Shown here: one piece after another, positions 45,972 through 51,574 of the stretch
Layout of the letters: each line of letters starts with the position of its first letter
Numbering within the stretch: position 1 is the first letter of the stretch
Source: a virus
Reading direction: 5' to 3' (one strand)
Virus record (IMG/VR): IMGVR_UViG_3300035670_000113
Location: 1-64,000 of that record
Length of the DNA stretch: 64,000 nucleotides
Program-made: the position numbers and the translations under genes
Notes under the pieces: model-generated
The model's input: only the letters and a program-made list of their open reading frames with translations
What the model was told of the DNA's origin: nothing
Databases searched by the model: none

Positions 45972-46048
45972 AGGCAATGTACAAGACTACGAACAGCAAA
46001 CTAAAAAAATTTTCCAGTCAATGAAAAAAAATAAAAGTAGTCTGTTTT

Positions 46049-48107: not shown

Positions 48108-48136
48108 TTGACAAAATTGAAATTTGATGGTATAAT
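48108..48136 (+). promoter_or_regulatory. Sigma70-type promoter
   Basis: TTTACCC-TTGACA-17-TATAAT with extended -10. Confidence 0.8.
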
Positions 48137-48295: not shown

Positions 48296-48324
48296 TTGAC
48301 ATATTTTAAAAATTGTGGTATAAT
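48296..48324 (+). promoter_or_regulatory. Sigma70-type promoter
   Basis: TTTACCC-TTGACA-17-TATAAT with extended -10. Confidence 0.8.
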
Positions 48325-48974: not shown

Positions 48975-49166
48975 CAGTACATATTTTCAAGGAGATATTA
49001 GATGATTAATAAAAATCAAATTGTAACAATTATTCTATCAGTAATTTTACTGGGTGCTGGAATTGCTACTTTTGTAGTGACCAAGAATGATGCACTTTCA
49101 AATGAGCTTATGATTGGGTCTATGATATTTGTAGTGATTACCTTATTTCTAAAACAGTAGATTGAT

Positions 49167-49223
49167 TGATTGCTTACAGCAAATACTACTCTTTGGCTTC
49201 ATGTCAAGTATAGGGGCAATCAG
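49167..49223 (+). ncRNA. ACAGCAA module 1
   Basis: GATTGC-TT-ACAGCAA...TTTGG-CTTCATG-TCAAG...GCAATC-AG. Confidence 0.7.
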
Positions 49224-49234
49224 TAAAATAACTT

Positions 49235-49306
49235 AGCGGGTGGTGGGCAAGGAGTCCAAAGAGCCTCATAAGCTCTTATAGCACAATTCAATTTTGTGAC
49301 CCGCTA
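49235..49306 (+). tRNA. tRNA-Met(CAT)
   Basis: AGCGGGT/ACCCGCT, loop CTCATAA. Confidence 0.8.
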
Positions 49307-49309
49307 CAT

Positions 49310-49366
49310 GGACTTCATACAGCAACTAATAAATTTTTTCATTTGGAGAAAAAAAACCGAAGTCCG
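49310..49366 (+). ncRNA. ACAGCAA module 2
   Basis: GGACTTC-AT-ACAGCAA...TTTTTC-ATTTGGA-GAAAAA...GAAGTCC-G. Confidence 0.7.
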
Positions 49367-49371
49367 TATTT

Positions 49372-49484
49372 GCCGAGATAGCTCAATGGTAGAGCACTAA
49401 AAAATTTTAGTCAGTAGATTAGTATCAGCAATAACTATAACCTTTGCAGGGTAGTGGTTCTAGGTTCGACTCCTAGTCTCGGCA
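49372..49484 (+). ncRNA. tRNA body with a circularly permuted CAGCAA module inserted in the anticodon arm
   Basis: GCCGAGA/TCTCGGC acceptor, canonical D and T arms; insert TTAGTC-AG-TA-GATTAG-TA-TCAGCAA; ACC-TTTGCAG-GGT loop. Confidence 0.75.
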
Positions 49485-49613
49485 CTAGTCACATAGGAAT
49501 ATGTGACTCCCACAAGCCCATTGGCGGTGCAAACCAATTAAAAAACACTTCAGAGTTTTTACCGCATAGATTTTCTCAAGGACAAAAAAATCTATGCACA
49601 CTTATATAGATTT

Positions 49614-49684
49614 GAGGCTATGGTCTATGGGTTGGGCCTCTGCCTTCCAAGCAGATGAACTGAGTTCGAGTCTCAGTAGCCTCT
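49614..49684 (+). tRNA. tRNA-Gly(TCC)
   Basis: Loop CTTCCAA. Confidence 0.85.
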
Positions 49685-49691
49685 TAAGTTA

Positions 49692-49770
49692 GATTCCTAA
49701 CAGCAAACACAGGAAAAAAAATTCATTTTGAGAATTATATGTGGTTCAAATCCACAAAGAAAGGAATCAG
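49692..49770 (+). promoter_or_regulatory. ACAGCAA module 4: leader RNA overlapping the RBS of the DUF2828 gene
   Basis: GATTCC-TA-ACAGCAA...AATTC-ATTTTGA-GAATT...TGTGG-TTCAAAT-CCACA...GGAATC-AG, then ATG at 49776. Confidence 0.7.
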
Positions 49771-49775
49771 GAATT

Positions 49776-51197
49776 ATGAACAACCTATTTAAGGCACTTA
49801 CTACAAAAGATACTTACACAGAAAATGGTATGCTAGCACACTCAACAACATCTAATCCACTATTGGACATGTTCTTCAAGATTGGAGCTACAAGACATCT
49901 AAGTGAAGTTGATATTGTAGATATCTTCTCAAAAGCATTTGCATATAATCCGACACTGGCTGTAAGATGCATGTTTTACAATCGTGATATTAGGGGAGGC
50001 CAGGGAGAAAGACGTTCATTCAGAGTCATGCTTGCATGGCTAACACAAAATTATCCTGAAACTGCTATAAACATCATTAAGTACGTTCCAGAATATGGTA
50101 GATGGGATGACCTTTTTTCTACTGTTGGTAATTCAAGAGTTTGGAAGGTAGCAACAGATTTTATTTTATTTAGTCTGAAGGCAGGAGATGCACTTTGTGC
50201 AAAGTGGATGCCTAGAGATAATAAGAAGTACAGAGAAATTGCAAATTATCTGGTAGAGACTTGGGGTATAACTCCAAAGCAGTATAGAAAGCTTATTGCT
50301 GGAAATACTAATGTAGTTGAGAGCCTGATGTGCAATGGATTGTGGAACAAGATTAATTATAACAGTGTTCCATCAAAGGCTTCTAATATCTACAGGAACT
50401 CTTTCAAGAGACACGATACAGAAAGATATAACGAATGGATTGATTCTTTGAGCAAGAAAGATACTACTTCAAAAATCAATGCCGGAGCTATTTTTCCACA
50501 TGATATTGTGAAGCCTTATTATGATGGAAAACCATTAGATAGAACTTTGGAAGAGCAGTGGAAGGCTTTACCAGACTACGTTTCTGAGGGTGTTTCTTTT
50601 CTTCCAATTTGTGATGTATCAGGCTCAATGAGCAGTTACGCAGTACTTGATAAGGCCATCACACTTTCTATTTATCTTGCAGAAAGAAATAAGTCCATCT
50701 TTAAAAATGGGTTTATGACATTCTCTGGAGATGCACACTTTGTACAAATTCATTCAAAATCATTGTATGCTAAGGTACAAGAGGTGCGTAATACTAGAAT
50801 TACTAGTATGTGGGAAAGCAATACAGATTTGACCAATCTTTTTAAAGTCCTTCTAGGACACGCTAGAGACGCTGAAGTGTCTCCAAGTGATATGCCTGAC
50901 ACACTGTTGATTCTGTCAGATATGCAATTTGACCCTTCATGGTATAACAGGAATCAAAGTGCTATGGAAATGATTAAAGAAAGTTACGAGAGATTTGGTT
51001 ATAAGTTCCCTAACATAGTTTTCTGGAACCTAAGATCCTCTGATAATGTTCCTGTGAAGGCAGATACTAAGGGTACTATACTAGTGTCTGGCTATAGTCC
51101 TAGCATTATGAAAAATGTTCTTTCAAATGAGTACACTCCCGTAAACATGATGCTACGTGTATTGAATTCAGATAGGTATAGTAAGATAACTTTATGA
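49776..51197 (+). CDS. DUF2828 / TROVE(Ro60)-like helical-repeat plus vWA protein
   Basis: TENG, RDIRGGQGERR, YGRWDDL, AKWMPR, QWKALPDY, MIDAS DVSGS, SDMQFD, FWNL, SGYSP; start reassigned to ATG 49776. Confidence 0.85.
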   Translation: MNNLFKALTTKDTYTENGMLAHSTTSNPLLDMFFKIGATRHLSEVDIVDIFSKAFAYNPTLAVRCMFYNRDIRGGQGERRSFRVMLAWLTQNYPETAINIIKYVPEYGRWDDLFSTVGNSRVWKVATDFILFSLKAGDALCAKWMPRDNKKYREIANYLVETWGITPKQYRKLIAGNTNVVESLMCNGLWNKINYNSVPSKASNIYRNSFKRHDTERYNEWIDSLSKKDTTSKINAGAIFPHDIVKPYYDGKPLDRTLEEQWKALPDYVSEGVSFLPICDVSGSMSSYAVLDKAITLSIYLAERNKSIFKNGFMTFSGDAHFVQIHSKSLYAKVQEVRNTRITSMWESNTDLTNLFKVLLGHARDAEVSPSDMPDTLLILSDMQFDPSWYNRNQSAMEMIKESYERFGYKFPNIVFWNLRSSDNVPVKADTKGTILVSGYSPSIMKNVLSNEYTPVNMMLRVLNSDRYSKITL

Positions 51198-51559
51198 ATA
51201 ACAACATAGAATCAATTGAAGTTAATATTGATAATGAACTGAGCCTGTATCTAGTATACAGGCTTGGTTCTGCCTTATGCGGGATATGCAAGGTAACACA
51301 CCTTGAAACAGACATTCTTTTTATAGACACCCTTTATGTAGTTCCGTTCTTTAGGGGTAAGGGTATTGGAAAACATCTTGTACAAGCAGTGGTAGATATA
51401 GCGAAAGAAAACAATCTACACGGAGTATCTTTGGGGGTAGATGATTGTTTTTCAGGATTAGGTGCTTTCTACGAAAAGATAGGATTTAAAAGGGTTTATC
51501 AATACCCTAGTGATAATATGCATGCATGCATTTATTCAATTGTACTTGACAAAAACTAA
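51194..51559 (+). CDS. GNAT-family acetyltransferase
   Basis: LYVVPFFRGKGIG, FYEKIGF; ATGA overlap with the DUF2828 gene. Confidence 0.85.
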   Translation: MNNNIESIEVNIDNELSLYLVYRLGSALCGICKVTHLETDILFIDTLYVVPFFRGKGIGKHLVQAVVDIAKENNLHGVSLGVDDCFSGLGAFYEKIGFKRVYQYPSDNMHACIYSIVLDKN

Positions 51560-51574
51560 ATAGTATGGTATAAT
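51546..51574 (+). promoter_or_regulatory. Sigma70-type promoter upstream of polA
   Basis: TTGACA-17-TATAAT with extended -10. Confidence 0.75.

What the first reader, a model, noticed from the sequence alone, without database searches (positions are those of the whole stretch)
49692..49778. Leader module sequesters the RBS of the Ro-like gene: possible switch responsive to tRNA damage
Seen: GATTCCT (49692-49698) is complementary to AGGAATC (49762-49768), which lies in the AAAGGAATCAGGA Shine-Dalgarno region 8-14 nt before ATG 49776. The helix encloses ACAGCAA, a Lys(UUU)-like anticodon hairpin and a perfect T arm. Inference: protein binding would close the RBS (autorepression), while cleavage of the anticodon mimic or titration by the other modules would open it.
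Basis: partly seen in the sequence, partly recalled or inferred. Interest (0 to 1): 0.7.

Follow-up and report, generated by a model that had tools for sequence, protein, structure and literature searches.

The report
Partner-RNA handle covering Ro-like gene's RBS
The leader of this phage's Ro-like (DUF2828) gene is a tRNA-flavoured copy of the small-RNA "handle" found beside such genes in many phages, and because it sits on the ribosome-binding site it probably lets the protein limit its own synthesis, though nothing shows that it senses tRNA damage.

Summary
GATTCCT (49692-49698) pairs with AGGAATC (49762-49768). The helix encloses ACAGCAA, a 5-bp hairpin with a 7-nt loop, and a T arm. Its 3' strand holds the likely Shine-Dalgarno sequence AAGGA (49761-49765).

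Folding energy alone is unremarkable (z -1.13). Opening the ribosome-binding site (RBS) costs only 3.6 kcal/mol, rank 16 of 59 genes.

The element is non-random because it belongs to a family. A covariance model built from other copies finds four hits in the whole 87-kb phage, all on the gene strand, and this element is one of them (E 0.03-0.04).

The family is a terminal helix followed by ACAGCAA. It flanks DUF2828 genes in very different phages, and its helix covaries.
- In 58 of 136 non-redundant leaders a copy ends within 30 nt of the start codon (shuffles: 0.9).
- Where tRNAs and modules lie upstream together, the module is always gene-proximal (41 of 41).
- KVP40-type vibriophages carry a minimal copy with the SD in its loop and the AUG in its stem.

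Best reading: an operator that mimics the protein's partner RNAs, giving translational autoregulation. Binding is inferred, not shown.

The tRNA-damage switch is unsupported. This scan has already noted the RNA family and leader copies on other DNA. I found no published description.

The parts
49690..49770 (+). Leader module: the gene-proximal copy of the stem + ACAGCAA RNA family, with a T arm
   Evidence: Full-length hit of model R1 (18.6 bits, E 0.032 in the window; E 0.044 in the whole genome). It was not among the seeds.
49692..49698 (+). 5' strand of the closing helix (GATTCCT); acts as an anti-SD
   Evidence: pair probabilities 0.71-0.76.
49700..49706 (+). ACAGCAA, the invariant single-stranded motif of the family
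   Evidence: (invariant in 36 of 36 seeds).
49720..49736 (+). 5-bp hairpin with the 7-nt loop ATTTTGA (anticodon-arm-like, central UUU)
   Evidence: The in-frame TTG 49728 lies in its loop.
49740..49756 (+). T-arm-like hairpin, 5 bp, loop TTCAAAT
49762..49768 (+). 3' strand of the closing helix (AGGAATC); overlaps the SD
49761..49765 (+). Probable Shine-Dalgarno sequence AAGGA (aligned spacing 8)
49769..49772 (+). Second AGGA, mostly unpaired but only 3 nt from the ATG (aligned spacing 1, outside this phage's range)
49776..51197 (+). DUF2828 + DUF7788 (vWA) protein gene, 473 aa, Ro60-like by features
   Evidence: Pfam; PHROG 850 'RNA-binding protein'; nearest non-DUF2828 clusters in the ESM Atlas are TROVE/vWA_Ro60.
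49614..49684 (+). tRNA-Gly(UCC). Its 3' processing would leave the module at the 5' end of the mRNA.
   Evidence: The processing step is inferred.
45983..46044 (+). Trans copy of the module (possible competitor RNA)
   Evidence: R1, 56.3 bits.
49166..49223 (+). Trans copy of the module
   Evidence: R1, 35.4 bits.
49309..49366 (+). Trans copy of the module
   Evidence: R1, 50.1 bits; Rfam Dicty_Class_I_RNA 26.8 bits, below its cut-off of 41.5.
49372..49484 (+). tRNA-shaped RNA with a 52-nt insert that holds TCAGCAA
   Evidence: Rfam tRNA 53.1 bits with a 52-nt insertion; followed up elsewhere in this scan.
48108..48136 (+). Consensus sigma-70-type promoter (12 of 12, TG extension)
48296..48324 (+). 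Second consensus promoter. No further promoter of this quality and no terminator-like site lies before the gene.
51194..51559 (+). GNAT acetyltransferase gene whose start overlaps the DUF2828 stop (same operon)

Best explanation
Bases 49690-49770 are the last, gene-proximal copy of a conserved small-RNA module. The module is a 7-9 bp terminal helix, then two nucleotides, then single-stranded ACAGCAA, a variable 'cargo', and a 3' strand ending C-N-G. It accompanies DUF2828 (Ro60-like) genes in many phages and is the presumed docking handle for that protein.

In this phage the copy carries a hairpin and a T arm as cargo. The operon is probably transcribed from the consensus promoters at 48.1-48.3 kb. 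Processing of tRNA-Gly would then leave this module as essentially the whole 5' leader of the DUF2828 mRNA.

The 3' strand of the module contains the Shine-Dalgarno sequence. The RNA helix alone is only a mild barrier to the ribosome. When free DUF2828 protein binds the handle, it would lock the helix and cover the ribosome-binding site, so the protein represses its own translation.

The three free module copies and the tRNA-shaped RNA in the same operon would compete for the protein. Synthesis would thereby be matched to the amount of unoccupied partner RNA.

Shown here: the anatomy, family membership, covariation of the helix, and conserved placement at the RBS. Inferred: protein binding, repression, processing and competition.
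For: Family membership
- Model R1, built from 36 other copies, finds only 4 hits in the window and in the whole 87-kb genome. All are on the + strand, and this element aligns full-length in register.

The family is real
- In loci fetched through the protein alone, 74 of 75 hits and 90 of 90 hits lie on the gene's strand.
- On the 90 non-seed hits the helix is 99.2% paired, and 7 of 7 pairs change on both sides. Slid controls reach at most 42% paired.

Placement
- Of 136 non-redundant leaders, 62 have a module within 150 nt. Of those, 58 end within 30 nt of the start codon and 44 within 18 nt.
- 58 of 136 leaders have a module ending between -30 and +9, against a mean of 0.89 and a maximum of 4 in 100 shuffles.
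- In 45 leaders with a same-strand tRNA within 1 kb upstream, the module is the nearest upstream feature in 41. The other 4 have no module upstream. About half would be expected by random order.

Copies that cannot be separate sRNA genes
- L008 and L017 have the AUG inside the 3' strand.
- KVP40, nt-1, VH7D, VS1 and K566 have a 6-bp helix + ACAGCAA, with the SD in the loop and the AUG in the 3' strand.

Same design as the window (SD in the 3' strand)
- L006, L157 and L092/L093.
- L086 has a T-arm-bearing leader copy whose 3' strand runs into the SD.

Other support
- SD assignment.
- Operon context without an internal promoter or terminator.
- Protein likeness to Ro60. A felixounavirus protein, Bas63 gp130, is described in a preprint as Ro60-like and as a counter to the ppl defence (passages read). 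Felixounaviruses encode full-length homologues of my protein, followed by a tRNA stretch that holds modules.
Against: - No binding, expression or RNA-end data exist. No RNA run holds the phage.
- The helix is weak. RBS opening energy is 3.58 kcal/mol, rank 16 of 59, below the median of 4.91. Fold z is -1.13.
- Features in these arrays are tightly packed everywhere. Non-leader modules lie a median of 12 nt from the next tRNA or module. A module abutting the SD is therefore partly what packing alone would give.
- 78 of 135 rows have no leader module by my criteria, including one clade of 59. Felixounavirus has none. The operator is therefore not universal.
- The SD-inside-helix state is scattered and not clade-conserved.
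- The R1 score of this copy is low (18.6 bits), and its outermost model pair is an A-A mismatch.
- Many leaders of the 13-15 nt class come from one freshwater clade, so the counts overstate independent events.
No sequence-level match to a solved Ro60 was found.
Confidence: 0.5

Rival explanations
1. It is simply one more stand-alone partner RNA (Y-RNA-like), cut out of the polycistronic transcript like its tRNA neighbours. It touches the RBS only because the array is tightly packed, and it has no regulatory role.
For: Non-leader modules lie a median of 12 nt from the next feature. In the window, modules sit 1-11 nt from tRNAs. [quoted passage not shown] This copy carries cargo (a T arm) like free copies do.
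Against: Excising the module at its consensus 3' end (G 49770) would remove the only well-spaced SD. The module is the gene-proximal feature in 41 of 41 arrays that hold both kinds. Minimal copies with the AUG inside the stem (KVP40 type, L008, L017) cannot be separate genes.
Confidence: 0.28
2. It is an mRNA 5'-end element. The stem plus T arm would act as a tRNA-like processing signal (RNase P or Z type), or as a 5' stem-loop that stabilises or enhances translation of the DUF2828 mRNA, independent of the protein.
For: It starts 5 nt after tRNA-Gly. It has a 7-bp stem and a T arm. M. smegmatis YrlA, with its 7-bp acceptor-like stem, is cleaved by RNase P (Chen 2014, passages).
Against: Five unpaired nucleotides separate the T arm from the 3' strand, and there is no D arm. 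No tRNA model or ARAGORN hit was found. Most leader copies in relatives lack any tRNA-like part yet keep ACAGCAA. A mere stabiliser would not need that motif.
Confidence: 0.1
3. One reading: it is a switch that senses tRNA damage, in which an anticodon nuclease cuts the Lys(UUU)-like loop and so opens the RBS.
For: The loop is ATTTTGA on a 5-bp stem. Loops with central UUU recur in 6 modules, and anticodon-like 7-nt loops are enriched: 73 of 237 modules against a shuffle mean of 19.8.
Against: The triplets are diverse (GCA 8, TGT 7, TTT 6, GTT 5 and 29 others). The loop has A, not C or U, at its first position. The L086 leader has a tetraloop there. Most leader copies have no such hairpin. Cutting that loop would not by itself unpair the closing helix. 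No RtcB or PF09414 ligase is present in the phage.
Confidence: 0.05
4. It is a decayed tRNA-Lys pseudogene in the tRNA array, whose end-pairing and overlap with the SD are accidental.
For: A T arm, an anticodon-like arm, a 7-bp end helix and a location in a 28-tRNA array. Its T loop TTCAAAT is the same as in both phage tRNA-Lys genes.
Against: No tRNA hit at E up to 10 in a 111-nt search, and none by ARAGORN. ACAGCAA sits exactly where the family has it, and the whole element aligns to R1. The stems differ from those of the phage's tRNA-Lys genes.
Confidence: 0.03

Closest known systems
Ro60/Rsr with Y RNAs, especially bacterial and phage YrlA/YrlB (Chen et al. 2014, PMC4201824; Thermus phage phiLo Ro60 with Yrl1/Yrl2, PMC12135203)
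   Same: Small RNAs whose two ends pair. They are encoded next to, and often upstream of and on the same transcript as, the gene of a ring-type vWA RNA-binding protein. Some carry tRNA-like T and D arms (passages read). Relatives here include permuted tRNA-like modules with a T arm, a closed acceptor hairpin and a D arm.
   Different: The protein is DUF2828/DUF7788, not TROVE, by Pfam. The handle is a short helix plus single-stranded ACAGCAA, not the Ro-binding helix with the GNCGAA-type motif; this element contains no CG at all. No Rfam Y-RNA model hits. In the passages I read, no copy covering the protein's own RBS is described for Ro60.
Translational operators that mimic the protein's RNA ligand (recalled examples: the E. 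coli thrS operator mimicking the tRNA-Thr anticodon arm, ribosomal-protein leaders, T4 gene 32 and regA, MS2 coat protein)
   Same: A cis copy of the RNA that the protein normally binds sits on the SD or AUG. Surplus protein blocks initiation, and the true ligands compete.
   Different: Binding and repression are not shown here. The ligand is an undescribed phage sRNA family.
Dictyostelium Class I RNAs (Rfam RF01414; Kjellin et al. 2021, PMC7919456)
   Same: [quoted passage not shown] The remainder is variable, and the tail is C-U-G (Rfam consensus; passages). Two phage modules score 26.8 and 36.1 bits.
   Different: All hits are below the gathering score of 41.5. This element scores only 12.3 bits, E 7.5. 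The paper calls the class unique to Dictyostelia and names an RRM protein as binder. Whether dictyostelids pair these RNAs with a DUF2828 protein was not tested here.

Membership tests
   six of the model's 7 pairs are standard, the outermost is an A-A mismatch, and U49698-A49762 adds a seventh pair outside the model. Pair probabilities are 0.71-0.76.
   18.6 bits; E 0.032 and 0.044. E-values are rough because calibration was shortened. The score is lowered by the 21-nt cargo insertion.
   It ends 5 nt before the ATG. Strand bias in relatives: 74 of 75 and 90 of 90.
Y RNA / YrlA | Match to a curated Rfam Y-RNA model | tested here: not met
   No such hit at E up to 10.
Y RNA / YrlA | Neighbouring protein has a TROVE domain | tested here: not met
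   Pfam gives DUF2828 + DUF7788 and only weak VWA_2; no TROVE in 37 of 37 members at E up to 5. TROVE appears only as a feature look-alike, score 0.92.
Y RNA / YrlA | GNCGAA-type motif (Chen 2014) | tested here: not met
   The element has no CG dinucleotide. The motif is as quoted in the passages.
Y RNA / YrlA | Bound by the neighbouring ring protein | not testable with these tools
   Needs immunoprecipitation or a gel-shift (EMSA) assay.
tRNA (RF00005) | Cloverleaf recognised by a tRNA model | tested here: not met
   No ARAGORN call. No RF00005 hit at E up to 10 on 49680-49790. There is no D arm.
Dictyostelium Class I RNA (RF01414) | Score at or above the gathering score of 41.5 | tested here: not met
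   12.3 bits, E 7.5, although full-length and in the same register.
Autoregulatory translational operator (ligand mimic) | A cis copy of the ligand RNA overlaps the SD or AUG | tested here: met
   Recurs in relatives.
Autoregulatory translational operator (ligand mimic) | The protein binds the leader and lowers translation | not testable with these tools
   Needs reporter, toeprint and binding assays.

The most novel reading that the evidence does not exclude
The DUF2828 ring protein, its free anticodon-displaying handle RNAs and the handle on its own mRNA form a titration circuit that reports on the state of tRNA-like RNAs during infection. When host anticodon nucleases, or the load of damaged RNA, change how much protein is occupied, occupancy of the operator changes and so does protein synthesis. 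The same handle-protein pairing would then underlie the unexplained Class I RNAs of Dictyostelium.
Probability: 0.1. Interest if true: 0.85.

Novelty: new variant of a known kind. Interest (0 to 1): 0.55.

Why it matters
DUF2828 proteins occur in 711 records of the phage collection searched. A preprint reports one Ro60-like felixounavirus protein as a counter to the ppl defence (passages read). Their RNA partners and their regulation are not described in any paper I could find.

A handle copy on the gene's own ribosome-binding site is the best internal evidence that the protein binds this handle. It also suggests a simple feedback that sets the protein-to-RNA ratio.

KVP40-type vibriophages, which are cultured, carry a minimal version over the start codon. 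The idea can therefore be tested directly with ordinary reporter and binding assays.

Tried and rejected
Closest DNA relatives. A blastn of 49100-50300 against the phage collection gave no match. A single-protein scan of viral contigs gave one locus.

Genomic context through the look-up of encoding contigs. I used the search for related loci with an alignment instead.

A profile search of solved structures gave no Ro60. Only the ESM Atlas look-alike is available.

RNA evidence. No RNA holder was listed. Laying the three DNA runs gave identical contigs over the leader, so there was no natural variant to test pairing. The two joints at 49396-49456 are other organisms' ordinary tRNAs aligning to the arms of the tRNA-shaped element.

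Thermodynamic sequestration as the mechanism: rejected as sufficient.

tRNA pseudogene: rejected.

D490-type vibriophage leader. ACAGCA runs into the ATG but no closing helix was evident. It is left unexplained.

Phage RNA-repair context in this genome. No RtcB and no PF09414 ligase were found. Other repair families were not searched.

Literature. Searches for DUF2828 (5 papers, none on phage RNA), Class I RNAs, PhageMaP/Bas63, YrlA + phage and Ro60 + Y RNA + phage + translational repression found no description of this RNA family or of a leader operator. Supplementary files were not opened and could hold relevant tables (Chen 2014 Table S2; PhageMaP Fig. S7).

Whether Bas63 gp130 is a DUF2828 protein was not checked by sequence. 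That Bas63 is a felixounavirus is recalled, not tested.

Caveats on counts.
- Module detection uses my own regular-expression and helix rule (at least 6 or 7 bp, at most one G-U), not the covariance model.
- Loci with identical leaders were collapsed.
- Four loci with under 150 nt upstream, and those with under 600 nt, were left out.
- L126 had no start found.
- Of the 25 'T-arm' hits, two (L094, L008) are small hairpins that merely fit the pattern. One (L042 5148-5220) coincides with an Rfam tRNA hit. One is the window's tRNA-shaped element.
- The tree is FastTree with many long branches.
Full report
1. WHAT IS IN THE SEQUENCE

The window comes from an 87-kb virus record with terminal repeats. 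The stretch 41.6-51.7 kb holds 27 of the 28 tRNA genes that ARAGORN finds in the window.

The ORF from ATG 49776 to 51197 encodes a 473-aa protein with Pfam DUF2828 and DUF7788. It matches PHROG 850, 'RNA-binding protein'.

The minimum-free-energy fold of 49685-49790 gives three helices:
- this closing helix;
- a 5-bp hairpin with the loop ATTTTGA (49720-49736);
- a 5-bp T-arm-like hairpin with the loop TTCAAAT (49740-49756).

The energy is ordinary: z -1.13, and 29 of 200 shuffles fold as well.

2. THE SHINE-DALGARNO SEQUENCE AND THE STRENGTH OF THE HELIX

Among 29 ORFs of at least 100 aa with an SD match of at least 5 nt, 25 have an aligned spacing of 3-8. AAGGA at 49761-49765 has spacing 8. 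The second AGGA at 49769-49772 has spacing 1, which none of the 29 shows.

The helix is only a mild barrier. Its pairs have probability 0.71-0.76. Opening positions -16 to +3 costs 3.58 kcal/mol. That is rank 16 of 59 SD-bearing ORFs in ascending order, below the median of 4.91. RNA structure alone does not make this a closed RBS.

3. IT IS A MEMBER OF A CONSERVED RNA FAMILY

I fetched loci through the protein only: 80 viral contigs and 80 metagenome contigs. The regions around DUF2828 genes carry repeated modules. Each module has:
- a helix of 6-10 bp;
- one to three nucleotides;
- CAGCAA, usually as ACAGCAA;
- 30-45 variable, A-rich nucleotides;
- the complementary strand and a C-N-G tail.

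With a simple rule, 60 such modules lie on the gene's strand and 2 on the other strand. None lies inside the gene.

A covariance model (R1) was built from 36 copies of 50-65 nt. It did not include the element under study. Its results:
- In the 64-kb window, both strands, it finds only four hits, all on the + strand: 45983-46044, 49309-49366, 49166-49223, and 49690-49770. The last scores 18.6 bits, E 0.032, full-length and in register.
- The whole 87-kb genome gives the same four.
- In the viral loci, 74 of 75 hits at E up to 1 are on the gene strand.
- In the metagenome loci, which were fetched after the model was built, 90 of 90 hits at E up to 0.01 are on the gene strand. L087 and L089 lie on the same contigs as the seed loci L005 and L007.
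- On those 90 hits the helix is 99.2% paired, and all 7 pairs change on both sides. Partners slid by 1-3 columns give at most 42% paired. That alignment was fitted to the model and leans towards it. The seed alignment was selected for pairing and is not independent.

4. THE CARGO OF THIS COPY

T-arm-like hairpins occur in 25 of 237 non-redundant modules, against 0.34 in shuffled interiors. Four of the 25 should be discounted: two are small hairpins that merely fit the pattern, one coincides with an Rfam tRNA hit, and one is the window's tRNA-shaped element.

Two designs appear.
- In the first, the T arm is followed by a closed acceptor-like hairpin and a D arm, the permuted layout known from YrlA. 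Examples are L098 1370-1480, L129, L144, L148 and L157 1184-1294.
- In the second, the T arm sits 5-10 nt before the 3' strand. Examples are L086, L096 489-580, L098 1150-1243, L157 948-1041 and the window's element.

The window's copy is a short version of the second design without a D arm.

Hairpins with a 7-nt loop, U at position 2 and a purine at position 6 are enriched: 73 of 237 against a shuffle mean of 19.8 and a maximum of 28. Their central triplets are diverse: GCA 8, TGT 7, TTT 6, GTT 5 and 29 others.

The element is not a tRNA by ARAGORN or by Rfam at E up to 10. Its stems differ from the phage's own tRNA-Lys genes, though the T loop TTCAAAT is the same.

5. IS THE POSITION AT THE RBS MEANINGFUL?

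Evidence that it is:
- Of 136 non-redundant leaders with at least 150 nt upstream, 62 have a module within 150 nt. The distance from helix end to ATG is 0 or less in 2, 1-6 in 4, 7-12 in 7, 13-18 in 31, 19-30 in 14, 31-60 in 2, and more than 60 in 2.
- The commonest arrangement is the C-U-G tail running straight into AAAGGA.
- 58 of 136 leaders have a module ending between -30 and +9. The shuffle mean is 0.89 and the maximum is 4.
- L003 and L005, which fail the strict motif, have a minimal hairpin with CAACAA or CATCAA abutting the SD.
- In 45 leaders with a same-strand tRNA within 1 kb upstream, a module is the nearest upstream feature in 41. The other four have no module. Modules make up about half of the upstream features.
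- SD or AUG inside the helix occurs in the window, L006, L157, L092/L093 (SD), and L008 and L017 (AUG). For the narrower test of overlap with SD or AUG, 5 of 65 viral-contig leaders qualify, against 6 of 529 control ORF leaders and a shuffle mean of 0.145.
- Cultured KVP40-type vibriophages (KVP40, nt-1, VH7D, VS1, K566) have a minimal copy downstream of a promoter-like TATAAT. It is a 6-bp helix plus ACAGCAA, with GAGGAA in the loop and the AUG in the 3' strand. The helix does not vary among these five, so it offers no covariation.

Evidence against over-reading this:
- Arrays are tightly packed in general. Non-leader modules lie a median of 12 nt from the next tRNA or module.
- 78 of 135 rows on the protein tree have no leader copy, including one clade of 59 with a different promoter type and modules downstream.
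- Felixounavirus has modules only between the downstream tRNAs. Listeria phage A511 has three upstream modules, the last ending 34 nt before the annotated start.
- The SD-inside state needs 6 changes for 7 rows on a FastTree tree with many long branches. It is not clustered (50 of 500 shuffles are as low). It looks like drift around a conserved theme and not a conserved design.

6. TRANSCRIPTION CONTEXT

Perfect consensus promoters lie at 48108-48136 and 48296-48324, and the next at 51546-51574. No promoter of that quality and no terminator-like site lies between 48324 and the gene. These are pattern matches only.

tRNA-Gly ends at 49684. Ordinary tRNA 3' processing would therefore leave the module at the very 5' end of the mRNA. 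This step is inferred.

The GNAT gene (51194-51559) overlaps the stop codon of the DUF2828 gene.

7. THE PROTEIN

No TROVE domain is found by Pfam in 37 of 37 family members at E up to 5; only weak VWA hits appear. No solved relative is found by profile search.

Once DUF2828 clusters are excluded, the ESM Atlas gives TROVE/vWA_Ro60 clusters as nearest by features: score 0.92, 26 of 30 hits, 160 shared features. The tool rates this as a lead.

Homologues occur in 711 phage records, several of them annotated 'Ro-like RNA binding protein'.

A preprint (10.1101/2024.10.10.617714, passages read) reports that Bas63 gp130 is structurally similar to Ro60, lies directly upstream of tRNA genes, and counters the ppl defence. 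I did not verify by sequence that gp130 is a DUF2828 protein.

8. MECHANISM

The best-supported reading is an operator that mimics the protein's partner RNAs.
- The protein binds helix + ACAGCAA on its own leader and blocks initiation.
- In this phage the SD lying in the 3' strand helps that block.
- Free copies compete for the protein.

My estimates: the element is a true family member, about 0.9; it acts as an autoregulatory operator, about 0.5.

The main rival is a stand-alone processed RNA that merely abuts the RBS (0.28). The tRNA-damage switch has little support (0.05).

9. COMPARISON WITH WHAT IS KNOWN

Y RNAs. The system works like Ro60 with Y RNAs. Chen 2014 (passages) describes Y RNAs encoded next to, and sometimes upstream of, rsr. 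They are processed from one precursor and carry tRNA-like domains. The phiLo paper gives a comparable arrangement (passages). This system is not a member by any tested criterion: no Rfam hit, no TROVE domain, no GNCGAA-type motif.

Dictyostelium Class I RNAs. The handle resembles these in architecture and motif (Rfam consensus; passages of PMC7919456). Scores stay below the gathering threshold: 26.8 and 36.1 bits for two modules, and 12.3 bits for this element.

Ligand-mimic operators are a classical bacterial and phage device (recalled).

10. NOVELTY

My searches found no paper on this RNA family or on a leader operator for a Ro-like protein.

Within this scan, the family, its likeness to Class I RNAs, and leader copies on other genomes have already been noted. 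This report is therefore a further instance.

It adds:
- counts of module placement;
- the gene-proximal ordering test;
- the packing caveat;
- the weak-helix result;
- cultured KVP40-type phages as a test bed.

Noticed in passing
L164 1425-1507 (Vibrio phage KVP40): The spacer between the promoter-like -35 and the TATAAT upstream of the KVP40 DUF2828 gene reads like a T arm (a 4-5 bp stem around TTCAAAT). A minimal handle then covers the SD and AUG. nt-1 and VS1 keep it; VH7D and K566 differ in the spacer.
   Followed up: partly
L098 1370-1480: This leader module is a whole permuted tRNA-like RNA: handle, anticodon-like hairpin with central UGU, T arm, closed acceptor hairpin and D arm. It ends 20 nt before the start codon and uses the motif variant TCCGCAA.
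   Followed up: partly
L129, L144, L147, L161, L064, L072, L102 (TCCGCAA); L156, L162, L142, L153, L113, L122 (CAGCAT): Clade-specific variants of the invariant motif, kept in the same register after the 5' strand.
   Followed up: no
window 49396-49456: Contigs of other organisms in runs X2 and X3 align to both arms of the tRNA-shaped element 49372-49484 but replace its 58-59-nt insert with 17-18 letters. They are ordinary tRNAs with a normal anticodon arm.
   Followed up: no
window 48108-48136, 48296-48324, 51546-51574: Three perfect 12-of-12 sigma-70 consensus promoters with a TG extension. Two precede the module/tRNA/DUF2828 operon and one precedes tRNA-Leu.
   Followed up: no
window 51194-51559: A GNAT acetyltransferase gene is translationally coupled to the DUF2828 gene (start overlaps stop). 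I did not check whether this pairing recurs in relatives.
   Followed up: no
L167 (Vibrio phage D490) 190-203: ACAGCA runs directly into the ATG of the DUF2828 gene with no evident closing helix. A homing endonuclease gene lies just upstream on the other strand.
   Followed up: partly
L165 4303-4458 (Listeria phage A511): A gene annotated 'tRNA splicing ligase' lies 1.3 kb downstream of the DUF2828 gene. The window's phage has no RtcB match.
   Followed up: no
L163 3254-3321, 3420-3480, 3816-3885 (felixounavirus, E. coli O157 typing phage 8): Handle modules fill unannotated gaps between annotated tRNA genes downstream of the DUF2828 homologue. This fits the PhageMaP preprint's guess that Y-like RNAs hide in that tRNA stretch.
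   Followed up: partly
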